From positions 2,331 to 66,330 of the forward strand of contig CAYTBG010000001.1 in assembly GCA_964435925.1 (NCBI GenBank): DNA of 64,000 nucleotides, read 5' to 3'. The DNA is from an uncultured Eubacteriales bacterium (lineage in GTDB: Bacteria > Acidobacteriota > Aminicenantia > Aminicenantales > Aminicenantaceae). A program made the translations under genes and the position numbers. Every line of letters begins with the position of its first letter. Within the stretch, counting starts at the first letter, position 1. Below, one piece after another: positions 6,360 through 50,812 of this stretch. The notes beneath the pieces were generated by a model. That model saw nothing but the letters and a program-made list of their open reading frames with translations. It was not told the origin of the DNA and did not search any database.

Positions 6360-7298
6360 TTGGCCTTCAAACACAAACATCTACTTGGTATCCAGGCCTT
6401 AACTCCTTCAGAGATTATTACAGTGCTGGATACAGCAGAATCCTTTTATGAGATTTCTACTCGGGAAGTAAAGAAAGTCCCGACTTTAATAGGAAAAACT
6501 ATAATCAACCTCTTCTTTGAACCCAGCACCCGGACCAGGAGTTCTTTCGAGCTGGCAGCAAAAAGATTGAGCGCAGATATTGTTAACTTTAATCAGCAGA
6601 CAAGCAGCGCAGTTAAGGGAGAAAGCCTGAAGGACACTATCTTAAACCTCGAGGCCATGAATCCCGATGCCATAATAATCAGGCATTCTTGCTCAGGAGT
6701 TCCCCACTTCACAACTATCTTCTGTCAATCCCACATTATAAACGCGGGTGATGGATCCCATGAACATCCAACTCAGGCACTTCTTGATGCCTTTACTATT
6801 AGACAGGAAAAAAAGAATTTTAAAGGCCTGAAGGTTACAATTGTTGGAGATATCCTTCACAGTCGAGTCGCACGATCCAACATCTTTCTCCTCCAAAAGC
6901 TCGGAGCAAGAGTCGTTCTTGTTGGACCACCCCCTCTTCTTCCCCTGGAAATGAAGAAATTTGGAGTCGGCATAGACTTCAACCTCGATAGAGCTCTAGA
7001 AGGAGCAGATGTGATCATGATGCTCAGAATCCAGATGGAAAGGCAGCAAAAAAATTTCTTCCCGTCTATTCGAGAATACAGAAATCTTTACAGTCTGACA
7101 GAAAAAAGGTTCCGACGCGCGAAAAAAAAGGCCATCATTATGCATCCTGGTCCCATAAATAGGGGTATCGAAATCTCAGCAGATATGGCTTATTCGGCGA
7201 AATCCGTCATACTCAAGCAGGTTGAAAACGGGATTGCAGTCAGGATGGCGGTTCTCTACCTTTTGCTGGGAGGAAAAGAACGTGAAACTTTTGCTTAA
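6360..7298 (+). CDS. pyrB: aspartate carbamoyltransferase catalytic subunit
   Basis: [23 protein letters not shown] and [10 protein letters not shown] motifs. TTG start preceded by aggataagg. Confidence 0.9.
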
Positions 7299-8577
7299 GA
7301 ACGGAAGAGTCATTGATCCCTCTTCGGGAACAGATGGCAAGTTAGATATTTTAATAGAAAAGGGGAAAATTGTTGATATAAAAGCAAGGATTGAAGCCAA
7401 GGGAGCAAAAGTCATCGATGCCTCAAGGTTAGTAGTTGCTCCGGGCTTTATCGACATGCATGTCCATCTCCGAGAGCCAGGCCAAGAGGATAAAGAAACC
7501 ATAGCGACCGGCGCCGCTGCCGCAGCCAAAGGAGGTTTCACTTCCATCGCCTGCATGCCCAACACTGACCCTGTTAATGATAATCGGGGATTGACCGAGT
7601 ATATTCTCTCTGAGGCAAAGAAAAGAGCTGTGGTCAATATCTTTCCCATAGCCTCCATAACCAAGGGGCAAAAAGGCGAAGAGCTAACAGATATGGCTGA
7701 CTTGGTGGATGCAGGAGCTGTTGCCTTTTCTGACGACGGTCAGTCTGTAGAAAGCAGCCAGATCATGCGTCGTGCTCTGGAATATTCAAAACCTTTAAAC
7801 ACTCTTATCATCGAGCACTGCGAGGATAAAAATTTAAGCAGTGAAGGTGTAATGCACGAGGGGTATTATTCCTATCTTTTTGGTCTGGCGGGCATTCCTG
7901 CTTCCTCAGAGGAGATAATGGTTGCTCGAGACACTATACTTGCCCAAGAGGCTGAGGCAAATATTCATATTGCGCATTTGAGTACTAAAGGAGCTGTAGA
8001 CATTGTCAGAAATGCAAAGAAAAAAAAGATAAAGGTCACTGCAGAAGTGACTCCCCATCATCTTTTTTTAACCGATTCTTATCTTGAAAATTATGACACA
8101 AGCCTGAAAGTAAATCCTCCTCTCAGAAGCAAAGAAGATGTCCAAGCTTTAATTCAAGCAGTGAAGGAAGGAATTGTGGATGTCTTTGCAACTGATCATG
8201 CTCCTCATACGCCGGATGAAAAGGATGTTGAATTCGATAAAGCCCCCTTTGGCATAAACGGCATAGAAACTGCAGTTTCTCTCCTTCTGGATAGGCTTGT
8301 GAGCAAAAATATCATTTCACTCAAAAGATTCATTGAGATGATATCCACCACTCCCTCCCTTATTCTTGGACTCGAAAACAAGGGAAAAATATGTGTGGGA
8401 GCTGACGCTGATCTGACCATCTTGAACCTCAACAAAGAAATTGTTGTTGACGTCAGCACCTTTAAATCAAAAAGCAGGAATAATCCTTTTCAAGGCTGGA
8501 AATTGAAAGGAACTCCAGCGATGACAATCGTAGGAGGAAAAATCGTCTATCCTTTCCTTTCTTCGAAAAGCTTATAA
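7282..8577 (+). CDS. pyrC: dihydroorotase
   Basis: [13 protein letters not shown] (HxH metal site) and [12 protein letters not shown] at 7282 gives the typical [14 protein letters not shown]-terminus. The ORF-track start at 7222 would overlap pyrB by 77 nt. Confidence 0.85.
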
Positions 8578-28006: not shown

Positions 28007-28762
28007 TTGAAAGAGAAAATAAGCATTATGGATAGAATTGCAGAGTCAAACAAATCTGTAACTACAGGAATTGATGAGAAGGATATTAAGGATTGGGTTA
28101 CAATTTATATAATGGGAAAGGCTTATAAGGTTCCAGCTGCGCTAACAATTATGCAGTCCATGGAGTTTGCTGGGTATAGGTTTGTCAGGTCTGCAGGATG
28201 CAGGGCAGGATTCTGTGGCGCCTGTGCTACAGTTTACAGAAAAGCTGGCGACTATAAACTACAGACTGCCATGGCCTGCCAAACAAGAGTTGAAGAAGGA
28301 ATGTACTTGGTTCAGATACCTTTTGCACCCGCAGAAAAAGCCACTTACGACATTAACAAAGAAAAATACGATATCGGTGTATTATTCAAACACTACCCAG
28401 AGCTTGCAAGGTGTGTAGCCTGCAATACATGTACAAAATCATGTCCTCAGGAACTCGAGGTCATGGATTATATCCAAGATGCAATCAAAGGAGATTTTAA
28501 AGCTGTTGCTGAGGAATCATTTGATTGTATTCAGTGCGGGCTTTGTGCCATCAGATGTCCTGCAGAACTTGTCCAGTATCATATTGCTCAGCTAGCCAGA
28601 AGAATGTATGGCCGATACGGACGCCCAGAGCCAGAACATCTAAAAAACAGGTTGAAAGAGATAGAAAAAGGTAAATATAAAGAAGATTGGAACAAACTTA
28701 TTAAGGCTACGATCAAAGATCTTGAAAAATTTTATGCTGATAGAGAAAGGGAGCCAGATTAA
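28007..28762 (+). CDS. succinate dehydrogenase/fumarate reductase iron-sulfur subunit-like protein
   Basis: [2Fe-2S]-type CRAGFCGACA...C followed by CVACNTCTKSCP and CIQCGLCAIRCP. TTG 28007 lies 6 nt after gaggagg; ATG 28028 is an alternative start. Confidence 0.7.
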   Translation: MKEKISIMDRIAESNKSVTTGIDEKDIKDWVTIYIMGKAYKVPAALTIMQSMEFAGYRFVRSAGCRAGFCGACATVYRKAGDYKLQTAMACQTRVEEGMYLVQIPFAPAEKATYDINKEKYDIGVLFKHYPELARCVACNTCTKSCPQELEVMDYIQDAIKGDFKAVAEESFDCIQCGLCAIRCPAELVQYHIAQLARRMYGRYGRPEPEHLKNRLKEIEKGKYKEDWNKLIKATIKDLEKFYADREREPD

Positions 28763-40211: not shown

Positions 40212-40247
40212 GAGTTTAAATGATATTCTTTGGAACACGAAGAGAAT

Positions 40248-41723
40248 ATGGAAGTTAAAGAAAGGAAAGAATTAGAAGTCGCTGTCGATAAAAGACACAT
40301 TGTCTCTATCGGCGAACGCCTCTATACAGAAAGCGTAGAGCTTCTCAGAGAACTTGTCAACAATGCCTATGATGCTGACGCAACCAAAGTCCACGTAGAG
40401 ATCACTCCTGAAAGAATTGTAGTCAGAGATAATGGCTCAGGCATGGACGAAGAAGGTCTAAAACAATATTTTATCATCGGTTCTGAAGAGAAAGTCATTC
40501 ATTCTCGCTCTCCAAAATTCGGAAGAACTAGAATAGGACAGTTTGGTATCGGAAAATTTGCGTCATTATCTGCTGCTTCCTGTTTTGAGGTTATAACTCA
40601 ACATAAAAATTTTGCAGCGCGAGTCATTTTTGACAAAAAAGCCTGGAAGAAGGCAAAAGACAGGTGGCGTCTTCCGCTAGAAATTCTTGAGCCTGATCAT
40701 CAAAGAGCAAACGGCACAACTGTCATTCTTTCTGAACTTTCTAAATCATTTGCCTTTGAAGAAGTGGAAAAAAAATTAATAGAAGGGGTTCCACTTAAAG
40801 CCCCTGATTTTACAGTGTATTTAAATAATCGCCGGCTTTTACCAAGAAGCCTTGTTGGCCAAAGGATTCCCATCATGGAAGGCTGCAAATACGGGCTTGT
40901 CTCAGGAGAGATTGTCATCACTCCCAGCTCGATGGCTTTGTTAAAAGATTTGGGTATCGATGTAAAAGTAAAGGCAGTTACTATAAAAAGGGAACTCTTC
41001 GGAATGGAAACCTGGGGAAAAGTTGTAGCCAGAGTAAAAGGGGAAATTAACGCAGATTTTCTTCCTATAACCAGCGACCGTTCAAATTTCGTGATTGATT
41101 CAGATGAATATCAAGAATTCCTCAAAATTATGAAAAAGCTTGTAGATATTATCAAAAAAACTTTGGGAAAGGAAGCTGATAGGAGGGAAGACCGAAAAGC
41201 CAGCCGTGTAGTAAAAGAAGCTCTGCAAAGAATTCATAAATCATTAGCCCGAAACCCGGAATTATCACCGTTCGGTCCTATTCCTTACGGTGAAGAAGGA
41301 GGGATAGGAGGAGGTGCTGTGGCTGAAGGGGAAAAGAAAAAAGCTGAAGATGAATCTGAAATTAGACCGCAAAAAAAAGAGGCCAAACAGAAACCAAAAA
41401 CCAAAAGACGACATCATCCTCTGGTGAAAAAAATCACCCCTAATGCCATTGTGCGCAGGATGAGGATGGGAGATAGTAGCGTCTCTGTCTGCCTTGATTT
41501 TTTTGGGGAATCAGGGCCGGAGTGCTTTTCTGAAGGGAATGTTATTTACATCAACCGGGACCATCCTCTCTTCAAGAGAGAGTCAAAGAAAGCTGCTACC
41601 TATACCATGTACTTAGCACGCCTTTTAACACAAGAGATCTCTTTGATGAAAGAGACGCGAAGCCCCCGCCTTGCTTTCAGCCGCCAGAGTAAACTTCTCA
41701 AAGACGCCTTTGTAGAAGAATAA
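40248..41723 (+). CDS. GHKL-superfamily (HATPase_c_3 / MORC-like) ATP-binding protein
   Basis: N box ELVNNAYDADA, G1 box VRDNGSGMD, and G2 box IGQFGIGKFAS. The C-terminal half has a Lys/Glu-rich linker and an unassigned domain. The start is ATG 40248 or TTG 40230. Confidence 0.75.
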   Translation: MEVKERKELEVAVDKRHIVSIGERLYTESVELLRELVNNAYDADATKVHVEITPERIVVRDNGSGMDEEGLKQYFIIGSEEKVIHSRSPKFGRTRIGQFGIGKFASLSAASCFEVITQHKNFAARVIFDKKAWKKAKDRWRLPLEILEPDHQRANGTTVILSELSKSFAFEEVEKKLIEGVPLKAPDFTVYLNNRRLLPRSLVGQRIPIMEGCKYGLVSGEIVITPSSMALLKDLGIDVKVKAVTIKRELFGMETWGKVVARVKGEINADFLPITSDRSNFVIDSDEYQEFLKIMKKLVDIIKKTLGKEADRREDRKASRVVKEALQRIHKSLARNPELSPFGPIPYGEEGGIGGGAVAEGEKKKAEDESEIRPQKKEAKQKPKTKRRHHPLVKKITPNAIVRRMRMGDSSVSVCLDFFGESGPECFSEGNVIYINRDHPLFKRESKKAATYTMYLARLLTQEISLMKETRSPRLAFSRQSKLLKDAFVEE

Positions 41724-41737
41724 AAAGCAAAATAAAG

Positions 41738-42460
41738 CTAAAGCCTAAAAATCGTTGTATTATTTTTCAGCCAATCTTTTCGTTTTTGGTAATCTGGTAT
41801 TACAATAGAAACAAGCTTCCAAAAATCCGAGGAGTGATTTTTGATTTTTAAATGGCACAGCTCATGTACAACTATATAATCGGCGATGGAAACCGGAGCC
41901 ATTGAGATCCGCCAGTTAAACCTTAATGTGCTATCTTTCGAACAGCTTGCCCAACGCTTTTTCTGATCTTTTATTATTATCTTTTTAGGAAACAAATTCA
42001 GCAACTTACTATAGCGGTTAACCCTTTGTTTGATAATCTTTGTTGATTTTTCAAAATACCATTTTATCAAAGTATCTTTGATTATTTCTTTTCTGTCTTC
42101 GGGAGCTAAATTACTATGAACATATATGAATAATCTTCTTCCAGATAACTTCGGGATACTTAGATAATTTTCTTCCTTTATTTTTAACCGATATTTTCTA
42201 CCCAACAACAAAATTTGTTCTCCGCTTACAAGCTCTTTTTCTGGAAAGAGCATAGCCAATCTTTTGAAATGTTCTTGTTTTTCCAGAATCCACAGGGCCT
42301 TTTTTTTTACAATTGTCTTGATTTTTTCCCTGCTGAAATTATTTGGAGCCAACACAATAACCTGGGAAGCAAGAGTTACATTGATAGCCAGAGTTTTTTT
42401 GCGATTTCCCCTTTTAATAGTGTAGTCAATGCGTTTTGTGCCGAAATTAATATAATCCAT
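41738..42460 (-). CDS. DUF45/YgjP-like (M48/WLM-type) zinc metallopeptidase
   Basis: HExxH motif (VVHELCHLKIKNHSSDFW). It starts 1 nt after the hsdR stop. Confidence 0.75.
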   Translation of the reverse strand: MDYINFGTKRIDYTIKRGNRKKTLAINVTLASQVIVLAPNNFSREKIKTIVKKKALWILEKQEHFKRLAMLFPEKELVSGEQILLLGRKYRLKIKEENYLSIPKLSGRRLFIYVHSNLAPEDRKEIIKDTLIKWYFEKSTKIIKQRVNRYSKLLNLFPKKIIIKDQKKRWASCSKDSTLRFNWRISMAPVSIADYIVVHELCHLKIKNHSSDFWKLVSIVIPDYQKRKDWLKNNTTIFRL

Positions 42461-42461
42461 T

Positions 42462-45400
42462 CTAATCCTTAAATCTGGCTCTTGCTAATTCCAAGACTTC
42501 CCTAGTAAATAATTCCAGTTTGCGATCAGGAAAGTTAATTTTTCTCAAACGATTTTTGATATCTCTTCGCATTTCTTTCTGAATATCTTCTTTTTCTACC
42601 CAATCAATAACTCTCTTTCTTTTTATGATTTCAACAATGTCTCGGGTCAAAAGACATCTTTTCTCATCGTCCCCACTAAAAAGTTTATTACTATAGGGTT
42701 CCAATAATCCATAAAAAGCAAATTCATCCAGTGTGAATCCTTTTTCTTTAGCAATAGCTTCTTTTTTCACTTCTTGTTTTCCGAGTTCTACTAGATCTTT
42801 AAGCAATTCCGCCTCATCTTTACGCCTTTGGCTGTCTTCTTCAATAATTGCTTCAAGTTTCTCCTCCAGGGACTCGTAGAAATGCGGATCTTCCCCAACT
42901 TTGGAATGTATCGTTTCACGTATAGCCTGTTCAACATGGCTCGCCTTGGCTCTTGTACTTCCCTTAATATCCAGTTTTTCTTCAAAATCAGGCGCAGTGA
43001 TTTTTATAGGCTCCAAGATTTTTTCAATCCCTGTATCAACGATATGAGCATGTATGAGTTTCTCAACTTTCCGGCTGCAATTCTCAAGACTCAATCTCTC
43101 ATCACGATAAAGATTTCTTGCCCCTTCCCGGACCATCCCCAGAAATTTGAAATCACCAATAAACGGCTCAACACTGGGATCAGGAATGAGCATATCCATG
43201 CTCTTTGCAAATTCCCTGAATAACACTTCAAATCTAGACCTTACATCTTCAGGTTTAAGGATTTCGAGACACTTCTGGAGTATTTCTGCAGGATTGGCCT
43301 TCCGATCAACAGTTTTAAATAATTGCATGGCCTTTTGATGAGCATCCTGGAGGGATGAGATTTCCCTGTGCCAGTCATCCACGCTGAATAAACCGACGAG
43401 GTCTTCACTGTCAAAGATCGCCAAAGCTTTTACCAGCTCCTTTCCAACACCCACATAATCAACGACCAACCCAAAATGTTTCCTTGGATAAGGCCTGTTG
43501 GTCCTGGCAATGGCCTGAAGCAGCGTATGTTCTTTCAATCTCTGGTCAAGATACATAACCTGCTCAATTGGGACATCAAATCCTGTCAGCAATTTATCAC
43601 ATACTATAAGAAACTTAAGAGGATTCGATGGACTGAGAAAAACATCTTTTCCTGTAATCCGGTCTTCTTCCTGGGCTGTGCGGCGGTATTTATTCTTCCA
43701 TTCTTTAGGGTCATCGTTATTAACCGTCATGACAACTGTCGACCAGGAAGGATCGACAAACTTATCCATCGCTTTCTTATACATAACCGCTGTTTTCCGT
43801 CCTGAAGCAACAAGCTGGGCTTTGAGTCCATTGGGCTCAATTTTTTCCACATAATGATTCACGATATCTATTGCAATGCGCTCTATTCTCCGCGGAGCAC
43901 TTAAGATAGCATCTACTGTTGCGTACCGTCTTTTTATTTCAGCCAATTCCTTTGGAGTTTTTTCGGGAAAGAGCTCTTTGAGCAGCCTGTCAATCGAAGC
44001 TCCCACAACCTGAAGATTGGTCAGCCGGCTTTCATATTTAACCGGAACAGTAGCTTCATCCTCCAGTGACTGTCGCATATCATATCTGTCCAGATATTTT
44101 TTGCCTGGAGGACTGAAATGCCGGTAAGTGTTTCTGTCTCTTTTATCAAGCGGAGTTCCGGTAAAAGCAAAGAGACTTGCACTGGGAAACGCTTTTCTTA
44201 GGTTTAGAGCATAAAAGCCATACTGTGTTCTATGCGCCTCGTCTGTCAGAATGATTATGTTTTTAGCCTCGGATAAAGGTTTTGCAAGAGCCTTGCGGAA
44301 TTTTTGAACGGTCGTCATAACTGTAATTCCGATTTCGCTGCTCAACAGGTCGTAGAGTTCTAGATGGGGCATTTTCTCTGCCATAATCGGATTGGGGAAA
44401 TTGCAATTCCTGAAGGTTTCAGTAATCTGTCTGTTCAATTTCTTCCTGTCCGTAACAATAAGGATTATGGGATTCTTTAATTTTTCCTGCTCTCGCCTCA
44501 ATTTCACAACGGCAAAAAGCATGATCAGTGACTTGCCCGAACCCTGCCAGTGCCAGATAATTCCTCTTTTATCAGGTTCGCTTTTCACAGTTCTAACTAT
44601 TTTATTAACTGCGGAAAACTGCTGATAGCGGCAGACTTTTTTGACGATTCTATGCTCTTCTTTGCTGTAGTCAAAAACTATAAAATTCTGAATAATATCC
44701 AATAAATTTGGCTTTCTCAAAAGCCCTGCAATCAAGACCTCCTGCATCGGAGGATGGCCGCTGATATCTTTTTCATCAATCAACCCCAGCTTTAGCATTT
44801 CTTTAACTGAGGGATGTTCAGCCATGTTGGGAAACTTGCCATCACCCGGATCCTTCCATTCATGATATTGCTCTTCTGACACATCAATGCAACCGTATTT
44901 GGCTCCGAAGAGATTGCAGCCGATAAGAATCTCGTTAGTCCAAAAAAGCTGGGTGATTTCTTCCTGATAGCGGATAAGCTGCCTCTGCGCTTTTAGAACA
45001 CCGGTTTTTTTTGCGACCGGGCTTTTGCATTCGATGACGACAACAGGAAGGCCGTTAATAAAAATAACAATATCCGGACAATCTGTGGTTCTATGCTTTC
45101 TGACCCAGAATTGATTAACCGCTAAGAACTCGTTGTTCTCGATGTTTTCAAAATCTATAAAATTGACAGTTTGTTTTTGCCGTCTGGCACCGATGTCCTG
45201 ATCAATGGAAATACCGGAAATAAGGTAACTGTGAAAAATGCGGTTGGTCTCAAGCGTGCCTTCAGATTGAATATGTGTGACTCTCCTGACCGCTTTTGTT
45301 ATAGAATCCTCGGTAAGATGAGGATTAATTTTGGCCAACGACTTTTTGAGGCGTTCCTCTAAAATGACATCTCTTCGGGATTTTCGTTCGCAATCTTCTT

Positions 45401-45512
45401 TAAGATCAGGGTCTAGCTGGTCTCCATGTATATATTTATATCCAAGCCGCTTTAGCTGCTCGATGGCAGGCTTTTCTGATAAAGTATCTTCGTTAAATTT
45501 TTTTCCTGACAT
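42462..45512 (-). CDS. hsdR: type I restriction enzyme R subunit
   Basis: 1016 aa. Typical N-terminus (EKPAIEQLKRLGY), Walker A WQGSGKSL, DEAH box LTDEAHRTQ, and helicase C-terminal motifs (QAIARTNR). Confidence 0.9.
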   Translation of the reverse strand: MSGKKFNEDTLSEKPAIEQLKRLGYKYIHGDQLDPDLKEDCERKSRRDVILEERLKKSLAKINPHLTEDSITKAVRRVTHIQSEGTLETNRIFHSYLISGISIDQDIGARRQKQTVNFIDFENIENNEFLAVNQFWVRKHRTTDCPDIVIFINGLPVVVIECKSPVAKKTGVLKAQRQLIRYQEEITQLFWTNEILIGCNLFGAKYGCIDVSEEQYHEWKDPGDGKFPNMAEHPSVKEMLKLGLIDEKDISGHPPMQEVLIAGLLRKPNLLDIIQNFIVFDYSKEEHRIVKKVCRYQQFSAVNKIVRTVKSEPDKRGIIWHWQGSGKSLIMLFAVVKLRREQEKLKNPIILIVTDRKKLNRQITETFRNCNFPNPIMAEKMPHLELYDLLSSEIGITVMTTVQKFRKALAKPLSEAKNIIILTDEAHRTQYGFYALNLRKAFPSASLFAFTGTPLDKRDRNTYRHFSPPGKKYLDRYDMRQSLEDEATVPVKYESRLTNLQVVGASIDRLLKELFPEKTPKELAEIKRRYATVDAILSAPRRIERIAIDIVNHYVEKIEPNGLKAQLVASGRKTAVMYKKAMDKFVDPSWSTVVMTVNNDDPKEWKNKYRRTAQEEDRITGKDVFLSPSNPLKFLIVCDKLLTGFDVPIEQVMYLDQRLKEHTLLQAIARTNRPYPRKHFGLVVDYVGVGKELVKALAIFDSEDLVGLFSVDDWHREISSLQDAHQKAMQLFKTVDRKANPAEILQKCLEILKPEDVRSRFEVLFREFAKSMDMLIPDPSVEPFIGDFKFLGMVREGARNLYRDERLSLENCSRKVEKLIHAHIVDTGIEKILEPIKITAPDFEEKLDIKGSTRAKASHVEQAIRETIHSKVGEDPHFYESLEEKLEAIIEEDSQRRKDEAELLKDLVELGKQEVKKEAIAKEKGFTLDEFAFYGLLEPYSNKLFSGDDEKRCLLTRDIVEIIKRKRVIDWVEKEDIQKEMRRDIKNRLRKINFPDRKLELFTREVLELARARFKD

Positions 45513-45526
45513 TCAACCAGGCCCCT

Positions 45527-46771
45527 TTATATTTTTGCCCTAATTTTACCAGTTAACAAAACCTGCATCAATCCTTTCTTTATACCTTCTAATCTTTCTT
45601 TATTAGCTATTTCATTCTCTATTTCTTCATCCACCGATGTTAAAGCCTCTGCAATCTTTTTTTGTTCGTGAAGTGGAGGGAGTGGAACCTTTATACTTGA
45701 AAGAGATGATGCATTAACTCCCCCCTGGGCACTACCACCAATCTGTTCTTTTATTTGTCTCCAGTAAATAAAAGAATTAAAAACTAGGTAAAGAAAGTTA
45801 GAATTAATTCTTCCTTTTGTAACTACTCTAATAAGATAGGACGCAAAGACCGCTTCTGGGCACTTTTTTATAATGTAACTTTTTCCTGTAGTTGCACCTG
45901 TTCTTACAAATAAAATATCTCCTGGCTTAAGAACGTATTTTTCTTTTATTGAATTTGAACAATGACAAAATGGAACATTTTCCCAATTTACTTTTCCATC
46001 CTGAATATCTGATATTCGTAAAAATTTCGGGCCAATTGGCTTTTCAGTCGCACTTTCGGTATAACCATACTCAGGCTTTTCACAAACATCTTGGACTTTA
46101 ACAACCTCCCAATCCACAGGAATCTCACCAATTTCTGTCTTCTTGAATTTTTTATGTCCTATTCCGCGGGTAAACAATTCCTGCATCAGGCTTTTTTTCA
46201 ACTTCCTTGTTTTATCAATGATCTCTTGCTTTTTCTCAATTGCTTCATCCATCGATGTTAAAATTTCCGCAATCTTTTTCTGTTCTGAAATGATTGGAAA
46301 AGGAATTTTTAGCTTAAATAAATCTTTTTTATTTATTGCTTCAAAAGTGCTCCCTTGCCCGATTTTCACTAATGTGTCTTTAAAGTAATTCATTACAAAA
46401 TACAAATAATCATTATAAATTTTCGTTCCTCGCAGAGCTGCCAATCCTCTCCCTATACAACATTCTACAGGAGCAATGTTAATATCTCCCACAGGAGCCC
46501 GCACACTTACAAGAATATCTCCTTTTTCAGCTAGTTTCCTAGGAGAATTACACCATTTTAGAATTTTAGGAAACTTAGTTCCAAATTCTGCATTTCCCTG
46601 AAAAAAGGGAACGCCATTCATAAATTCAAAACAACTTTCAGACGGAGGTGATTGTCCCATAATCAATTGTGTAACTTCACCAAGATTTACAACTTCCCAA
46701 TCCACAGGAATTTCACCTATATCTGTTTTTTTTAATTTATTTTCAGTTCGTAAACTCTCTACTCGTCCCAT
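45527..46771 (-). CDS. hsdS: type I restriction enzyme S (specificity) subunit
   Basis: Two target-recognition domains, each preceded by TDIGEIPVDWEVV / TEIGEIPVDWEVV, and conserved coiled-coil spacers (EQKKIAEILTSMDEAIEKK / EQKKIAEALTSVDEEIE). Confidence 0.9.
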   Translation of the reverse strand: MGRVESLRTENKLKKTDIGEIPVDWEVVNLGEVTQLIMGQSPPSESCFEFMNGVPFFQGNAEFGTKFPKILKWCNSPRKLAEKGDILVSVRAPVGDINIAPVECCIGRGLAALRGTKIYNDYLYFVMNYFKDTLVKIGQGSTFEAINKKDLFKLKIPFPIISEQKKIAEILTSMDEAIEKKQEIIDKTRKLKKSLMQELFTRGIGHKKFKKTEIGEIPVDWEVVKVQDVCEKPEYGYTESATEKPIGPKFLRISDIQDGKVNWENVPFCHCSNSIKEKYVLKPGDILFVRTGATTGKSYIIKKCPEAVFASYLIRVVTKGRINSNFLYLVFNSFIYWRQIKEQIGGSAQGGVNASSLSSIKVPLPPLHEQKKIAEALTSVDEEIENEIANKERLEGIKKGLMQVLLTGKIRAKI

Positions 46772-46781
46772 TCTTCCCTCT

Positions 46782-47828
46782 TTATTCTCCTCCTCCGGTT
46801 CTTAACAATCTGGTAATGAAATTCTGAAATTCCTCTTCATACTTGTCTGGGCTAGTTTTTTCACCTGGAACAGCAGGCAAATCCAGACCGCTTTTTGAAA
46901 ATTCAATGCTTATGGTTTCCATGGCTTCGCGCAACTTAGAACTTCGCAAATAATCTGATATGACCTGTTCAACTTCATTCAGAACATCCCAAACATTATT
47001 CAATGCAGAAAATAGCGAAATCCAATCAAGCCATACAGGCAATTTTTGATCATCTAAATTCGCTCCTAAAAGAAACTCTCCCCACCTTTTTTGAGATAGC
47101 CAGTATTCGATTTTTCTCTTCCCTTTGATTCTTGTCAGCACCAACCCAGACTCTGCAAACTCAATCAAAGCATCCTGCACAGCCCTTAGAGAAATACCGA
47201 TTGCATCAGCCACCTCTGAAGGATGGCCGGCTTCATGAGTAAGGAGATAAAGGATGCATTCTGAACGGGAGCCTATCCCAAAAAGAGCCCTTAGCGAAAA
47301 ACGCATATTGCTTCTTGCTGCAACAGATACGGGTCTTGACATTTTTCGTAATGAAAAACTTTCCCGCAAAAATCCATACTCATGAAATGGTTCTGATATT
47401 TCTCCAGGTTTGGGGAAAGGTTCTTCTTCCCTAGTATTAAACAGCATTTCCTCTTTAACTCTTAAATCAGATGATTTCGATCTTGCTAATGCCTGCCATT
47501 TTCTCCTGTAAGACCTGGCCTCATGTGATAAAAAATGTGCCACTGCACTCATCAGACGTCGTGTTTTCTCATTTTTACTTTTGACTATCCCCCGAAGTCT
47601 CTGAATATCTATCCATTTGCCATTAACCACCATCCAATCCAGAACCTCATCAAAAAGCCGAGGCTCATATCTACTCATTTCAATCGAGAATAGGAGAAGA
47701 GCTTCAGGATCTATAACCCATTCGTCCTCAGATCTTGCACCTCCGGCAACACCCAGAGAAGACCACTGTCGCCAAAGAAAATTTAAAATGTTCTCCAGGA
47801 AAAAATGCTTAAATTCTTTCTGCGACAT
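46782..47828 (-). CDS. hypothetical 348-aa protein with a central winged-HTH-like segment
   Basis: ECILYLLTHEAGHPSEVADAIGISLRAVQDALIEFAESGLVLTRIKGKRKIEYWL looks like an ArsR/MarR-type wHTH, and the flanking regions are unassigned. The start overlaps the upstream NTase gene by 20 nt. Confidence 0.6.
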   Translation of the reverse strand: MSQKEFKHFFLENILNFLWRQWSSLGVAGGARSEDEWVIDPEALLLFSIEMSRYEPRLFDEVLDWMVVNGKWIDIQRLRGIVKSKNEKTRRLMSAVAHFLSHEARSYRRKWQALARSKSSDLRVKEEMLFNTREEEPFPKPGEISEPFHEYGFLRESFSLRKMSRPVSVAARSNMRFSLRALFGIGSRSECILYLLTHEAGHPSEVADAIGISLRAVQDALIEFAESGLVLTRIKGKRKIEYWLSQKRWGEFLLGANLDDQKLPVWLDWISLFSALNNVWDVLNEVEQVISDYLRSSKLREAMETISIEFSKSGLDLPAVPGEKTSPDKYEEEFQNFITRLLRTGGGE

Positions 47829-48411
47829 CTTTGTATCCTATTTTTTTCAGAAAATCCTTGAGGACTTTTTTATACGTATCCGAAGGATCATGGGTTATAG
47901 TCCAGCGTGCTGCATCTTCCGTTTCTTGTGCTGTGGGTCGTAAGGTCATCAAGTCGTCAAAATGGACATCAGGCCGGCCTCGATCAACGGCTGCAAAGAG
48001 CTTAAAATGAATCTGATCATAGCGACTCAGAAAATGAATGATAAGGCTTCTTCCATAAGTACGAGTCTCTACTCTTTTCATAAGACCTTCGGGCAGGCCA
48101 AAATCCAAAACTGATGCAGGGCCTGTGTTAAGCCAATTCTCCGGTAGATTAAAGTCTCTCTGCACTCTTTTGGCTGCGGCCGTAATCGCGGGGTTTAGAG
48201 GGCTTTCTTTTGCTAAAAATGCCGTGCCATCTCTATTCCTCTCAACAAACGCGACAACATCTACGTCTTTAGTTGTGCGTTGGACATAGCCAATTATGTT
48301 CAAAGCAGCACCTCCACAAACAACCATTTCAATTCGTCCTGCTCTCTCTGCATCTAGCTGTTCGGAAAGTGCCATTAGGACAGCTTCAATATCTTTTTTT
48401 CCTTTAAACAT
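47809..48411 (-). CDS. pol-beta-superfamily nucleotidyltransferase-fold protein (AbiEii-like N-terminal motif)
   Basis: VVCGGAALNIIGYVQRTTKDVDVV matches the GG-x(n)-R-x-T-x-D-x-D NTase signature. 200 aa. It starts 2 nt after the hsdM stop. Confidence 0.6.
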   Translation of the reverse strand: MFKGKKDIEAVLMALSEQLDAERAGRIEMVVCGGAALNIIGYVQRTTKDVDVVAFVERNRDGTAFLAKESPLNPAITAAAKRVQRDFNLPENWLNTGPASVLDFGLPEGLMKRVETRTYGRSLIIHFLSRYDQIHFKLFAAVDRGRPDVHFDDLMTLRPTAQETEDAARWTITHDPSDTYKKVLKDFLKKIGYKDVAERI

Positions 48412-48413
48412 GT

Positions 48414-49901
48414 TTATACCTTATAATTCAACTCTCTCAAGTAATTAAAAACTTTATCCTCTGCTTTCTTGAATCCTTTCTTTAACTCACTCAATTCATT
48501 TATTGTTTTCTGGATGTCGATTTTCTCTTCTTCTTCTGCAGTATCAATATAGCGGGTTATATTAAGATTGAAGTCATTTTCTTGAATTTCACTTACAGGA
48601 ACAGGACGACAATATTTCTCAGTGGTTTTGTATTCCCTGAATGCTGAGACAATATTTTCAATATCTTCATCCCGTAATCTATTCTGCTTCTTTCCCTCCA
48701 GATACTCATTCGCTCCATATAGAAAAAACACTCTTCCTTTTCTTTCTTTGGGCTTATTTTTATTCAAGATGAACAAACAGGCTGGAATACCTGTCCCATA
48801 AAACAATTTAGGCGGCAACCCTATAACAGCTTCAAGCAAATCTTCTCCGATTATCCCTATTCTTATTTTCTCTTCTGCTCCTCCGCGGAATAATGCACCA
48901 TGCGGCAGAACAACCCCGACTTTTCCCTTTGGATGGATGGTTGCAAGCATGTGCTGGACAAAGGCATAATCGGCATACCCTTTCGGGGGAATGCCGAATC
49001 GGAATCTTTTATAAGGGTCATTCTGGGCCTTCTCATATCCCCAATTCTTTAAGGAGAAGGGCGGATTGGCGATGACAACATCAAATTGCATCAATTGTCC
49101 ATGAGACAGCAATTGGGGATCCCGTAAAGTATCGCATCTTTTGATCTGGGCGTTTTTTAAGCCATGAAGGAGCAGATTCATCTTACAAATTGCCCATGTT
49201 CCTACATTTATTTCATGTCCATAAAGCGAAACATTTTTAGGATTCTGTTTGTTTTCTTTCAAATGCTGAACAGATTGGATCAACATTCCGCCTGAGCCGC
49301 AGGCTGGATCACAGATTCTCATCCCCTCTTGTGGATCTAAAATTTTGACTAACAACTCAACAACTTCTTTTGGCGTATAAAACTCTCCCCCTTTTTTCCC
49401 GGCACTTGAAGCGAATTGAGCTATTAGATATTCATAGGCATCACCCAAGATATCCGGTTTTTCCAAATCAGCATTACCCAACCTGATTTTAGAAAAGTGA
49501 TTGACCAATTGAGAAAGAATATGATCAGGCAGGCGATCTTTATCATTAAAATCAACTGCAGATAGGACTCCTTCTAAACTTTCCGGATTTTCTTCTTCCA
49601 ATAAATCGTTGGCCTTGTTAATAGCCTGACCGATATCATGTGTTAATGATTTGAGACGATCCCAGCTAGCTTTTTCAGGGACAAAAAACTCGTGATAATC
49701 CCGATCTTCGTATGCAATCTTTTTATCGCCGGTTTCTCTTACTATTTTCTCCGCTTCCTCTTTAAAAACATCGGATATTCTCTTCAAGAAAAGAAAGCCA
49801 AAAATATAATTTTTATAGTCTGCTGCATCAATATGGCCTCTTAAAATATCAGCAGATTTCCAAAGGTGAGTTTTCAATACTTCCAGATTAATTTTTTCCA
49901 T
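48414..49901 (-). CDS. hsdM: type I restriction-modification N6-adenine DNA methyltransferase subunit
   Basis: HsdM N-terminal domain (LWKSADILRG), SAM motif DPACGSGGML, and catalytic NPPF (VIANPPFS). Confidence 0.9.
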   Translation of the reverse strand: MEKINLEVLKTHLWKSADILRGHIDAADYKNYIFGFLFLKRISDVFKEEAEKIVRETGDKKIAYEDRDYHEFFVPEKASWDRLKSLTHDIGQAINKANDLLEEENPESLEGVLSAVDFNDKDRLPDHILSQLVNHFSKIRLGNADLEKPDILGDAYEYLIAQFASSAGKKGGEFYTPKEVVELLVKILDPQEGMRICDPACGSGGMLIQSVQHLKENKQNPKNVSLYGHEINVGTWAICKMNLLLHGLKNAQIKRCDTLRDPQLLSHGQLMQFDVVIANPPFSLKNWGYEKAQNDPYKRFRFGIPPKGYADYAFVQHMLATIHPKGKVGVVLPHGALFRGGAEEKIRIGIIGEDLLEAVIGLPPKLFYGTGIPACLFILNKNKPKERKGRVFFLYGANEYLEGKKQNRLRDEDIENIVSAFREYKTTEKYCRPVPVSEIQENDFNLNITRYIDTAEEEEKIDIQKTINELSELKKGFKKAEDKVFNYLRELNYKV

Positions 49902-49953: not shown

Positions 49954-49982
49954 AATATACAAAAAACGGATATAAATGTCAA
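49954..49982 (-). promoter_or_regulatory. candidate promoter of the hsdM operon (TTGACA-17-TATATT on the minus strand)
   Basis: The minus strand reads attattgacatttatatccgttttttgtatatt. The -35 is at 49982-49977 and the -10 at 49959-49954, about 50 nt upstream of the hsdM ATG. Confidence 0.45.
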
Positions 49983-50050
49983 TAATTATATTTAATATTA
50001 TAGTTTATCTACAATTATTGTGAAGTTAAACTACATTTATTATTGAAATC

Positions 50051-50812
50051 TTATATTCCAAATAAGCCTTCGCTTTTTAAGCTAATATGACCATGAGTAT
50101 AAATTATAATGTGATCTAGTGGAGTAATGTCAACGGCTTTGCATGCTGAAATAAGCCTCTTGGTTATATCAATATCAAACTGGCTTGGTTTTCTGCTTCC
50201 AGAGGGATGATTATGTACAAAAATGACGGCACTCGCATCTTTATTTATTGCACCTTTTATTACTTCTCTAGGATAGATGGAAGCCTGGTCCACAGTACCT
50301 TTGGCGATAGTTTCGACTTCCAAGACTTTATTGGCTTTGTCTAAATAAACGACCTTGAAAAACTCTTCTTTTAGATCTCTCATAGATAAAGAAAGATAAT
50401 CCAGAATATCCTTATCATTTTCCATATATTCTTTCCCTATTATTTCTTCTTTAAGCTGACGTTTGGCAATTTCTATAGCAGCTAAAAGCTGAGCTATTTT
50501 TGCACTGCCTAAGCCATTAATTTTCTCAAGCTCTGATTTATTAGCACTCAGCAATCCTCTCAGCCCTCCAAATTGCTTAATCAGGCCTCTGGCTAAAGAC
50601 ACTGCATCTTTTCCTCTTGTACCGGACCGCAATAAAATAGCAATCAACCCGGCATCAGAAACATAATCAGATCCCTTCTCTAAAAGTAATTCTCTCGGCC
50701 GTTCATATTTCGGCCAAAATTTTATAGAACTCTTTACTTTCTTCTTTTCAGTCGTCACTATTATCTCTTCAAGAATGACGCCAAAAGATAAATAAATTCT
50801 CTTGGGTTTCAA
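50051..50812 (-). CDS. radC: RadC-family (JAB/MPN domain) protein
   Basis: YERPRELLLEKG N-terminal motif, HhH region (LEKINGLGSAKIAQL), and the JAMM-like HNHPSG motif. Confidence 0.85.
   Translation of the reverse strand: MKPKRIYLSFGVILEEIIVTTEKKKVKSSIKFWPKYERPRELLLEKGSDYVSDAGLIAILLRSGTRGKDAVSLARGLIKQFGGLRGLLSANKSELEKINGLGSAKIAQLLAAIEIAKRQLKEEIIGKEYMENDKDILDYLSLSMRDLKEEFFKVVYLDKANKVLEVETIAKGTVDQASIYPREVIKGAINKDASAVIFVHNHPSGSRKPSQFDIDITKRLISACKAVDITPLDHIIIYTHGHISLKSEGLFGI

What the first reader, a model, noticed from the sequence alone, without database searches (positions are those of the whole stretch)
46782..48411. Uncharacterised two-gene cassette (NTase-fold protein plus 348-aa wHTH protein) wedged between hsdM and hsdS
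Seen in the sequence: a 200-aa protein with a pol-beta NTase signature (VVCGGAALNIIGYVQRTTKDVDVV; GG...R-x-T-x-D-x-D) starts 2 nt after hsdM. It overlaps by 20 nt the start of a 348-aa protein whose centre looks like an ArsR/MarR-type winged helix (SEVADAIGISLRAVQDALIEFAESGLVLTRIKGKRKIEYWL).

Established background: type I R-M operons are known landing pads for auxiliary defence or toxin modules such as PrrC/RloC anticodon nucleases, AbiE and HEPN/MNT pairs. In AbiE, a wHTH antitoxin (AbiEi) precedes a GGxAL...DxD NTase toxin (AbiEii).

Inference: here the order is reversed. The NTase is about 100 aa shorter than typical AbiEii, and the wHTH protein is larger, with two unassigned flanking domains. 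One of these contains a weak R-x6-H (RLMSAVAH) that I would not call HEPN without alignment. This may be a new AbiE-/MNT-related abortive-infection or toxin-antitoxin variant functionally tied to the R-M complex. I consider it the best candidate in the window for an undescribed defence module.
Basis: partly seen in the sequence, partly recalled or inferred. Interest (0 to 1): 0.7.

Follow-up and report, generated by a model that had tools for sequence, protein, structure and literature searches.

The report
NTase–wHTH toxin-antitoxin-like pair inside type I R-M operon
Two overlapping genes between hsdM and hsdS encode a small MenT/AbiEii-like nucleotidyltransferase and an uncharacterised 348-aa DNA-binding partner; the pair is inherited as a unit across many bacterial phyla together with a conserved palindrome in front of the operon, so it looks like an undescribed toxin–antitoxin-type module that may also regulate the restriction operon.

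Summary
On the minus strand, a 200-aa ORF (47809-48411) starts 2 nt after hsdM. It overlaps a 348-aa ORF (46782-47828) by 20 nt, and that ORF ends 10 nt before hsdS.

The first protein is a DUF6036 nucleotidyltransferase. Its GG, R-x-T-K-D-x-D, K137 and D153 motifs are invariant and match MenT/AbiEii toxins, including the phospho-acceptor position. The second protein belongs to a large family with no Pfam model (about 1,800 clusters at 50% identity). It has a strongly conserved N-terminal helical domain, an ArsR-like winged helix and a C-terminal helical bundle. The suggested HEPN R-x6-H is not conserved.

The pair is adjacent in 59 of 73 evaluable partner-seeded loci and 78 of 79 NTase-seeded loci. 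Most sit in hsdM-NTase-partner-hsdS-hsdR-ygjP operons. Some stand alone in toxin-antitoxin islands.

A 37-bp palindrome (TATAGTTTA-N19-TAAACTATA) lies just upstream of the operon's -35 box in about 77 loci. It also precedes four stand-alone pairs.

My best reading is an AbiE/MenAT-like toxin with a new antitoxin/autoregulator whose operator now fronts the whole R-M operon. No toxicity, DNA binding or phage phenotype has been tested. I classify it as a new variant of a known kind.

The parts
49999..50035 (.). 37-bp inverted repeat TGTAGTTTA-N19-TAAACTATA, a candidate operator lying between radC and hsdM
   Evidence: The same repeat, with an exact 19-nt spacer, is found in about 77 related loci (67 distinct sequences). 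The arms are 87-100% conserved while the flanks diverge. It also lies directly upstream of stand-alone NTase-partner pairs in L020, L085/L086 and L096. There is no Rfam match.
49954..49982 (-). sigma-70-like promoter (TTGACA-17-TATATT), 16 nt downstream of the inverted repeat
   Evidence: The scan scores it 11 of 12. TTGAC lies within 45 nt after the repeat in 67 of 70 distinct loci, most often 14-17 nt away.
49997..50024 (-). second promoter-like site (TTCACA-16-TATAAT) lying inside the inverted repeat
   Evidence: The scan scores it 11 of 12. This is a consensus match only; its -10 is part of the right arm of the repeat.
48414..49901 (-). hsdM, type I R-M methyltransferase subunit
   Evidence: Pfam N6_Mtase at 1.8e-111 and HsdM_N at 1.6e-29.
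47809..48411 (-). 200-aa DUF6036 nucleotidyltransferase, the predicted toxin or effector
   Evidence: Pfam PF19502 scores 31.1 bits against a cut-off of 23.6, and there is a weak AbiEii hit. G33 G34 T47 D49 D51 D132 K137 D153 D175 S177 are invariant down to 26% identity. The AlphaFold model has pLDDT 93.5. The nearest PDB folds are the NTase-like protein 5uvd and the MenT1 toxin, both weak matches.
46782..47828 (-). 348-aa partner protein, the predicted antitoxin or transcriptional regulator. N-terminal helical domain at residues 1-115, linker, ArsR-like wHTH at about 172-245, C-terminal three-helix region at 269-344.
   Evidence: No Pfam, NCBIfam or PADLOC family scores above threshold. The family has 1781 clusters at 50% identity. 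The wHTH matches ArsR/SmtB at E 3e-4. The model has pLDDT 88.8. The motifs IDPE and RYEPRLFDE are invariant.
45527..46771 (-). hsdS, specificity subunit
   Evidence: Pfam Methylase_S at 3.2e-49, two domains.
42462..45512 (-). hsdR, restriction/translocase subunit
   Evidence: Pfam HSDR_N, SWI2_SNF2, ResIII and T1RH-like_C.
41738..42460 (-). YgjP-like metallopeptidase, last gene of the operon
   Evidence: Pfam PF01863 at 1.8e-57. It follows hsdR in most related loci.

Best explanation
The two genes form a toxin-antitoxin-type module of the AbiE/MenAT kind, built from different parts.

The upstream gene encodes a minimal, catalytically intact nucleotidyltransferase of the DUF6036 family. By analogy with MenT and AbiEii, it would block growth by adding nucleotides to tRNA 3' ends or a similar RNA target.

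The downstream, translationally coupled gene encodes a 348-aa protein. I infer that it neutralises the NTase through its highly conserved N-terminal domain. This might work by inducing autophosphorylation of the invariant Thr47 in the R-x-T-K-D-x-D loop, as MenA antitoxins do.

I also infer that its ArsR-like winged helix binds the 37-bp palindrome just upstream of the promoter. In this window and most relatives, hsdM lies between that promoter/operator and the pair, and hsdS, hsdR and ygjP follow. The module's regulator would therefore control the whole type I R-M operon. The module would then act as an addiction element and/or an abortive-infection back-up for the restriction system.

Shown here: gene structure, family assignment, motif conservation, linkage, autonomy, and the conserved palindrome.

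Inferred: toxicity, which partner is the toxin, the neutralisation mechanism, DNA binding to the palindrome, and any defence role.
For: 1. NTase identity and intact active site. It scores above the DUF6036 cut-off. GG, R45-x-T47-K48-D49-x-D51, D132, K137 and D153 are invariant or nearly so across 26-99% identity. The loop matches MenT3 R76-x-S78-K79-D80, where S78 (T39 in MenT1) is the phospho-acceptor (PMC11375011). MenT1 is among the closest PDB folds.

2. Tight pairing. The NTase is intact and adjacent in 59 of 73 evaluable loci seeded with the partner. The partner lies directly downstream, with the same overlap, in 78 of 79 evaluable loci seeded with the NTase. The identities of the two proteins fall together across loci.

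3. Autonomy. Twelve or more pairs lie outside any R-M operon. Their neighbours include CPSase and a two-component system, an integrase, Fic, GmrSD, RHS, AbiEi/AbiEii, HEPN/MNT, Phd/PIN and IS elements.

4. Asymmetric loss. The partner persists intact where the NTase is deleted (L004, L032) or internally deleted (L005, L011). It also persists where the NTase is replaced by DUF3800 or by an AAA_14-DUF4143 ATPase. Only one NTase lacks the partner, L149, which is rearranged. This is the pattern expected if the NTase is the harmful partner.

5. Operator-like palindromes. TATAGTTTA-N19-TAAACTATA occurs in about 77 loci, 14-17 nt upstream of TTGACA. The same site precedes the stand-alone pairs L020, L085/86 and L096. 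The Planctomycetota pairs carry a different palindrome with 15-nt arms that overlaps the -35 box. The partner is the only transcription-factor-like protein in the operon.

6. Other DUF6036 NTases pair with unrelated downstream partners (L085), as MenT toxins do with diverse MenA antitoxins.
Against: - No experiment exists, and no paper mentions DUF6036.
- Strict AbiEii/MenT membership is not established. The Pfam AbiEii score is below the cut-off. hhalign against AbiEii gives probability 0.2-1.3%. Foldseek to MenT1 gives E 0.03-0.1 and TM about 0.4.
- The gene order, NTase first, is the order of the MNT antitoxin in HEPN/MNT pairs.
- The palindrome sits upstream of the -35 box. That position fits an activator site as well as a repressor site, and nothing shows which protein binds it.
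- All sampled hsdM genes of this clade carry the pair. No natural control without the partner was available to test whether the palindrome depends on it.
- The asymmetry in loss rests on few loci: 4 of about 44 against 1 of 79 within the comparable identity range.
- The close stand-alone copies may be derived from embedded operons, so they are not fully independent evidence.
Confidence: 0.5

Rival explanations
1. The module is a controller of the restriction operon, not a toxin-antitoxin pair. The 348-aa wHTH protein would be the transcriptional regulator of the type I R-M operon, analogous to the C proteins of type II systems. It would time hsdM against hsdR expression after transfer to a new host. 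The NTase would be a cofactor or modifier that tunes it, for example by nucleotidylylating the regulator or an Hsd subunit, and would not be toxic itself.
For: The palindrome lies upstream of the single strong promoter of the six-gene operon. The partner is retained where the NTase is lost or swapped for other genes. Every sampled hsdM of this clade carries the pair. The position of the site, upstream of the -35 box, suits activation.
Against: Twelve or more pairs exist with no R-M genes nearby, often in TA islands, and they keep their own palindromes. The NTase keeps a complete MenT-like catalytic motif set. The partner has no similarity to Xre-type C proteins. A pure regulator would not need a 115-residue invariant extra domain together with a coupled enzyme.
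Confidence: 0.25
2. The roles are reversed, as in type VII HEPN/MNT systems. The upstream NTase would be the antitoxin, inactivating the 348-aa protein by covalent nucleotidylylation, for example on an invariant tyrosine such as Y54. The 348-aa protein would be the toxin.
For: The gene order, with the NTase first, matches MNT-HEPN. The N-terminal domain of the partner is the most conserved part and carries invariant charged residues and Y54.
Against: The HEPN-like R-x6-H is not conserved. There is no HEPN or other toxin fold match. The partner survives intact without any NTase in L004 and L032, and beside unrelated genes in L050, L053, L054 and L060. A toxin that needs the NTase should not tolerate this.
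Confidence: 0.07
3. The pair has an ordinary, non-conflict function. The NTase would be a small-molecule or antibiotic nucleotidyltransferase, and the wHTH protein would be its substrate-sensing repressor. Its place in R-M operons would be an accident of hitch-hiking.
For: There is a weak Foldseek match to the aminoglycoside NTase ANT(2'')-Ia at E 0.6. ArsR-type regulators commonly sense small ligands.
Against: The placement is precise and conserved, with translational coupling inside hsd operons across many phyla. The stand-alone copies have TA or defence genes as neighbours. The R-x-T-K-D-x-D loop is typical of MenT/AbiEii. There are no hits in PLSDB plasmids.
Confidence: 0.05

Closest known systems
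AbiE (AbiEi antitoxin / AbiEii NTase toxin; Pfam PF08843, DUF1814), type IV/VII TA and abortive-infection system
   Same: It is a two-gene operon with a pol-beta NTase carrying GG and R-x-[ST]-x-D-x-D plus downstream K and D motifs. The partner carries a winged helix and there is a palindromic site at the promoter. It is mobile and common in defence or TA islands. AbiE pairs are found next to stand-alone copies of this module (L079, L085, L173).
   Different: The NTase is about 200 aa rather than about 270-320 aa, and it scores as DUF6036, not AbiEii (16.2 bits against a cut-off of 22.5). The gene order is reversed. The partner has no AbiEi_1/AbiEi_4 domains. Its wHTH is central and ArsR-like rather than N-terminal, and it is flanked by two domains with no known relatives.
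MenAT systems of Mycobacterium tuberculosis (MenT1/MenT3 tRNA nucleotidyltransferase toxins with diverse MenA antitoxins; PMC11375011, PMC10435456)
   Same: The toxin is small, as MenT1 is at just under 200 aa. The active-site loop is identical in form, R-x-[ST]-K-D, including the phospho-acceptor position. Unrelated antitoxin families serve related NTases. MenT1 is among the nearest PDB folds.
   Different: Sequence and structural similarity are weak (Foldseek E 0.03-0.1). The antitoxin family is new and far larger than MenA1. The module is embedded in an R-M operon. No tRNA activity or phosphorylation has been shown.
PrrC/RloC-type effectors embedded in type I R-M loci (PMC3710099)
   Same: An accessory, potentially suicidal enzyme is encoded inside an hsdMSR operon. 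This suggests a second line of defence coupled to restriction.
   Different: PrrC is a single ABC-ATPase-HEPN anticodon nuclease held in check by the R-M proteins. Here there is an NTase with its own dedicated wHTH partner, and the pair also lives without R-M genes.
C (controller) proteins of type II R-M systems
   Same: A small DNA-binding protein is encoded within the R-M operon, with a palindromic site at the operon promoter.
   Different: C proteins are Xre-type HTH proteins of about 80-100 aa, and no NTase is involved. The protein here is a 348-aa, three-domain ArsR-like wHTH protein. As far as I know, type I systems have no described transcriptional controller.

Membership tests
DUF6036 nucleotidyltransferase (Pfam PF19502) | Score at or above the Pfam gathering threshold | tested here: met
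   31.1 bits against a cut-off of 23.6, E 2.5e-7, residues 12-155. Most homologues carry a precomputed PF19502 hit.
AbiEii / DUF1814 NTase toxin (Pfam PF08843) | Score at or above the Pfam gathering threshold, or a significant profile-profile match | tested here: not met
   16.2 bits against a cut-off of 22.5, covering motifs I-II only. PADLOC AbiEii E 0.017. hhalign probability 0.2% and 1.3%. A minority of homologues have a PF08843 hit on record.
AbiEii / MenT NTase toxins | Four conserved NTase motifs: GG; R-x-[ST]-x-D-x-D; K; D | tested here: met
   G33 G34, T47, D49, D51, K137 and D153 are invariant, and R45 is nearly invariant (present in at least 90% of sequences), across 26-99% identity. 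The non-significant hhalign alignment nevertheless puts GG, R..D.D, K and D in register with AbiEii. The motif definition comes from PMC11375011.
AbiE system | Cognate AbiEi antitoxin (N-terminal wHTH plus AbiEi C-terminal domain) encoded upstream of the toxin | tested here: not met
   The partner is downstream and has no AbiEi_1 or AbiEi_4 hit. Genuine AbiEi proteins in L079, L065 and L085 do hit those models.
MenT toxins | Structural similarity to the MenT fold | tested here: inconclusive
   Foldseek to MenT1 (8an4, 8an5, 8rr5) gives E 0.03-1, TM 0.33-0.45 and probability up to 0.9.
MenT / AbiEii toxins | Growth inhibition, tRNA 3'-end nucleotidylation, antitoxin-induced autophosphorylation | not testable with these tools
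   This needs expression, tRNA-seq and Phos-tag or mass-spectrometry experiments.
HEPN/MNT type VII TA | Partner with a HEPN fold and a conserved R-x4-6-H motif | tested here: not met
   H98 of RLMSAVAH is not conserved, and R91 is conserved only in the closer homologues. There is no HEPN Pfam hit and no HEPN fold match.
ArsR/SmtB-type winged helix-turn-helix | Sequence-profile and fold match of the DNA-binding domain | tested here: met
   The family profile hits ArsR/SmtB/HlyU/BigR chains at E 3e-4 to 9e-4 over residues 173-257. Foldseek matches SmtB, AspA, MarR and PadR folds in the same segment. Single-sequence Pfam hits are below threshold.
Toxin-antitoxin module (generic) | Two small co-directional, overlapping genes that occur as an autonomous mobile unit with a palindromic promoter site | tested here: met
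   The 20-nt overlap is conserved. Stand-alone copies occur in unrelated contexts. Palindromes lie at the promoters.
Known anti-phage defence systems (PADLOC-DB v2) | Significant match of both proteins to models of a described system | tested here: not met
   Only marginal hits were found: AbiEii at E 0.017, an orphan MTase at 9e-4 and Csa3 at 9e-4, the last in the wHTH only.

The most novel reading that the evidence does not exclude
The 348-aa protein would be the first transcriptional controller described for a type I restriction-modification operon. It would bind the conserved 37-bp palindrome upstream of the promoter and so set expression of hsdM, hsdS and hsdR. At the same time it would hold a MenT-like NTase toxin in check. 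Loss of the operon, or phage interference with its expression, would then release the toxin. A TA module would in effect have become the regulatory and fail-safe core of the R-M system.
Probability: 0.3. Interest if true: 0.75.

Novelty: new variant of a known kind. Interest (0 to 1): 0.62.

Why it matters
NTase toxins of the AbiE/MenAT kind are among the most abundant phage-defence and TA effectors. The DUF6036 branch has no literature, and its 348-aa partner family of about 1,800 clusters has neither a domain model nor any literature.

If the model holds, three things follow:
- It adds a new antitoxin architecture to the family.
- It extends the antitoxin-induced autophosphorylation idea to a new branch of NTases.
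- It gives a concrete, testable case of a TA regulator wired to control a type I R-M operon. As far as I know, type I systems are regulated post-translationally and no operon-encoded transcription factor has been described for them.

The conserved operator sequence and the natural variants make the experiments straightforward. The variants include loci where the NTase is lost, loci where it is swapped for DUF3800 or an AAA ATPase, and stand-alone pairs.

Tried and rejected
- HEPN reading of RLMSAVAH. Rejected because H98 varies freely.
- Direct sequence search of the PDB with either protein. Only chance hits.
- Foldseek of the 348-aa model against PDB and BFVD. Only the wHTH matched, and nothing matched the N- or C-terminal domains.
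Not significant.
- hhalign of the partner profile against the 222-aa partner of another DUF6036 gene in L085. Unrelated.
- Searches of PLSDB plasmids and of phage genomes with both proteins. No real hits.
- Scan of viral contigs for the palindrome. There were 13 hits, none near hsd or pair genes, and the number is about what chance gives in AT-rich DNA, so it was uninformative.
- Rfam scan of the region. Nothing.
- Natural control: related hsdM operons that lack the partner. All sampled hsdM relatives of at least 71% identity carry the pair, so the control could not be made.
- Literature. No paper mentions DUF6036, and searches for genes inserted between hsdM and hsdS gave nothing specific.
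Full report
**1. Observation**

The region carries one co-directional gene string on the minus strand:
- radC, 50051-50812
- hsdM, 48414-49901
- a 200-aa ORF, 47809-48411
- a 348-aa ORF, 46782-47828
- hsdS, 45527-46771
- hsdR, 42462-45512
- a YgjP-like metallopeptidase, 41738-42460

Pfam confirms the Hsd subunits, RadC and YgjP.

Reading the DNA gives these junctions. The hsdM TAA is followed by 2 nt and then the ATG of the 200-aa ORF. The two ORFs overlap by 20 nt. The 348-aa ORF ends 10 nt before the hsdS ATG, behind a GAGGGA Shine-Dalgarno-like stretch. There is no terminator-like site between hsdM and hsdS. The two best promoter-like sites (11 of 12 matches) lie upstream of hsdM.

**2. The NTase**

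The 200-aa protein passes the Pfam threshold for DUF6036 (PF19502) with 31.1 bits against a cut-off of 23.6. It has a sub-threshold AbiEii hit (16.2 against 22.5) over motifs I-II. PADLOC and NCBIfam give nothing significant.

It has 630 detected homologues, which NCBI variously names "DUF6036 family nucleotidyltransferase" or "AbiEii/AbiGii toxin family".

In 64 close homologues and in 20 sequences reaching down to 26% identity, these residues are invariant: G33, G34, T47, D49, D51, D132, K137, D153, D175 and S177. R45 is nearly invariant. The loop R45-T46-T47-K48-D49-V50-D51 has the same form as MenT3 R76-x-S78-K79-D80. S78 in MenT3, and T39 in MenT1, is the residue that antitoxins cause the toxin to autophosphorylate (PMC11375011).

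AlphaFold gives a confident model (pLDDT 93.5). Its nearest PDB neighbours are an NTase-like protein (5uvd, E 1.8e-3) and the MenT1 toxin (E 0.03-0.1, TM about 0.4). Both matches are weak.

Profile-profile comparison with the few AbiEii sequences at hand is not significant, although it aligns GG, R..D.D, K and D in register.

Conclusion: this is a catalytically intact minimal NTase. It is a member of DUF6036 and resembles MenT/AbiEii in its motifs, but it is not demonstrably a member of DUF1814.

**3. The partner**

The 348-aa protein has no family above threshold in Pfam, NCBIfam or PADLOC. It has 1549 homologues in the word-indexed search. An exhaustive HMM search finds 1781 clusters at 50% identity (1206 at E ≤ 1e-10). 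Nearly all are about 340 aa.

The model is confident (pLDDT 88.8, pTM 0.88). It has these parts:
- an all-helical N-terminal domain, residues 1-115
- an extended linker
- a winged helix, about residues 172-245
- a C-terminal three-helix region, residues 269-344

The family profile hits ArsR/SmtB-type regulators in the PDB at E about 3e-4 over residues 173-257. Foldseek against PDB and BFVD matches only that segment. The flanking domains have no detectable relatives.

Across sequences down to 28% identity, the most conserved part is the N-terminal domain: W19, W22, G26, D40-P41, R53-Y54-E55-P56-R57-L58-F59, E61 and W111.

**4. Linkage**

Seeding with the partner in one genome per species gave 79 loci. 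They come from Aminicenantes, Spirochaetota, Omnitrophota, Desulfobacterota, Nitrospirota, NC10, Elusimicrobiota, Verrucomicrobiota, Planctomycetota, Acidobacteriota and Actinomycetota.
- Of 73 loci with enough upstream sequence, 59 have an intact adjacent NTase, 6 have a partial one and 8 have none.
- 49 loci show the full hsdM-NTase-partner-hsdS context, usually followed by hsdR and ygjP.
- At least 12 pairs have no such flanks.

Seeding with the NTase in metagenomes gave 80 loci. The partner follows with the same overlap in 78 of the 79 that are evaluable. The exception, L149, is rearranged.

The identities of hsdM, the NTase and the partner decline together across loci. All hsdM relatives sampled independently, at 71-86% identity, carry the pair.

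**5. Autonomy**

Stand-alone pairs sit between unrelated genes. The neighbours include carbamoyl-phosphate synthase and a two-component system (L075), an integrase (L064), Fic (L077), GmrSD (L073), RHS (L066), SbcCD-like genes (L057) and a replication-relaxation gene (L072). AbiEi/AbiEii lies next door in L079 and L065.

Three close relatives at 64-71% identity (L085, L086, L096) lie in TA islands. These hold HEPN/MNT, AbiEi/AbiEii, Phd/PIN, an IS element and a second DUF6036 gene with an unrelated 222-aa downstream partner.

The pair therefore behaves as a mobile two-gene module. Related NTases use different partners, as MenT toxins do.

**6. Which partner is dispensable**

- The partner is intact where the NTase is cleanly absent (L004, L032) or internally deleted (L005, L011).
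- In some Elusimicrobiota, a DUF3800 protein (L050, L054) or an AAA_14-DUF4143 ATPase (L052, L053, L060) sits in the NTase's place.
- The reverse case, an NTase without the partner, was seen once.

The numbers are small. The direction is what one expects if the NTase is the dangerous component and the partner its antidote or regulator. It argues against the MNT-antitoxin reading.

**7. A conserved operator-like palindrome (new in this stage)**

In the window, 50035-49999 reads TGTAGTTTA-N19-TAAACTATA. It lies 16 nt upstream of TTGACA-17-TATATT.

The same inverted repeat, always with a 19-nt spacer, occurs upstream of the operon in about 77 loci (67 distinct sequences). The consensus is TTATAGTTTAaCtTCA-N9-TGAaGaTAAACTATAA. 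The nine core positions of each arm are 87-100% conserved, while the surrounding intergenic DNA is not. One inner position switches symmetrically, with T:A in 27 sequences and A:T in 15. TTGAC follows within 45 nt in 67 of 70 distinct regions, most often at 14-17 nt.

The same repeat lies directly upstream of the NTase in the stand-alone pairs L020, L085/L086 and L096, which have no hsdM.

More distant pairs have other palindromes:
- The Planctomycetota clade has a site with 15-nt arms, GCAATAATATCACTTGACATAAGTGCTATTATTGC. It overlaps the -35 box, 13-30 nt before the ATG.
- The actinobacterial pair has TGATGACTAC-N6-GTAGTCATAA.
- The Elusimicrobiota operons have adjacent TATAGT/ACTATA half-sites.

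The region has no Rfam match. The exact pattern also turns up 13 times in viral contigs, away from any related gene. That is about the number chance gives in AT-rich DNA. The argument therefore rests on position and conservation, not on uniqueness of the motif.

The partner is the only transcription-factor-like protein in the operon. HsdS varies between loci (25-64% identity) while the repeat does not. I therefore infer that the partner binds this site.

**8. Interpretation**

The best-supported model is an AbiE/MenAT-like toxin-antitoxin module with new parts.
- A DUF6036 NTase serves as the toxin.
- A three-domain wHTH protein serves as antitoxin and autoregulator.
- The module's promoter and operator now drive the whole type I R-M operon.

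Its effect would be addiction of the host to the operon and/or abortive infection when restriction fails, in the spirit of PrrC (PMC3710099).

I hold this at about 0.5. The main rival, at 0.25, is that the partner is chiefly a controller of R-M expression and the NTase is a non-toxic accessory. The two readings overlap.

The reversed-role reading (0.07) and the housekeeping reading (0.05) fit the data poorly. No toxicity, binding or defence data exist, and no paper mentions DUF6036.

**9. Novelty and score**

The kind of system, an NTase toxin with a DNA-binding antitoxin, is known. The following were not found described in the libraries and literature searched:
- the NTase branch
- the partner family
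- the reversed order
- the systematic embedding between hsdM and hsdS
- the operon-level operator

I classify the finding as a new variant of a known kind, with interest 0.62.

The closest sequence relatives are Candidatus Aminicenantes MAGs, at 86-97% identity. The window probably comes from that phylum.

Noticed in passing
window 50051-50812 (-); also L005, L177-L180: A radC (RadC-like JAB plus UPF0758_N) gene lies directly upstream of hsdM in the window. It does so too in several related loci whose further flanks differ (citrate synthase/aconitase in one, ruvABC in another). radC may therefore travel with the R-M/NTase operon, and the palindrome lies in the radC-hsdM spacer.
   Followed up: partly
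window 40230-41723 (+): A 497-aa GHKL-type ATPase (HATPase_c_3) is convergent with the hsd operon. Its N-terminal region resembles the BbrUII/HgiDII family restriction enzyme model (E 7.7e-29, far below that model's cut-off) and PADLOC type II REase models. It may be another defence gene in the same island.
   Followed up: no
L050 7074-7859, L054 6939-7742, L053 1519-3039, L060 6456-7970, L052 82-918: In some Elusimicrobiota operons the slot upstream of the 348-aa homologue holds a DUF3800 protein or an AAA_14-DUF4143 ATPase instead of the NTase. The wHTH protein may thus serve as a constant partner for interchangeable effectors.
   Followed up: partly
L085 7155-7736 and 7729-8397: A second DUF6036 NTase (193 aa, hhalign probability 86% to the window family) overlaps an unrelated 222-aa downstream gene that has no Pfam family. 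This may be another uncharacterised NTase-partner pair.
   Followed up: partly
P0252 (666 aa), P0257 (780 aa), P0296 (1509 aa), P0368 (1738 aa): Some family members carry the 348-aa module at the N-terminus of much longer proteins. One is fused to DUF5677 and one to a Schlafen AlbA_2 domain. The very long ones have no Pfam hit. These could be true fusions or gene-calling read-through.
   Followed up: partly
L064 about 2362-2502 and L076 about 6961-7313: Two verrucomicrobial 'stand-alone' pairs have only a fragment matching the C-terminal end of hsdM directly upstream. This suggests that the pair outlived a decayed R-M operon.
   Followed up: no
L173 7103-8425 compared with L174 7103-7783 and L175 5360-6040: Contigs that encode the identical HsdM protein carry hsdS genes of different length (440 aa against 226 aa). 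This points to half-size or recombined specificity genes within one population.
   Followed up: no
window about 28226-28263: There is a second, imperfect match to the palindrome pattern, with an 18-nt spacer and 2 mismatches, elsewhere in the window. It is probably a chance match.
   Followed up: no
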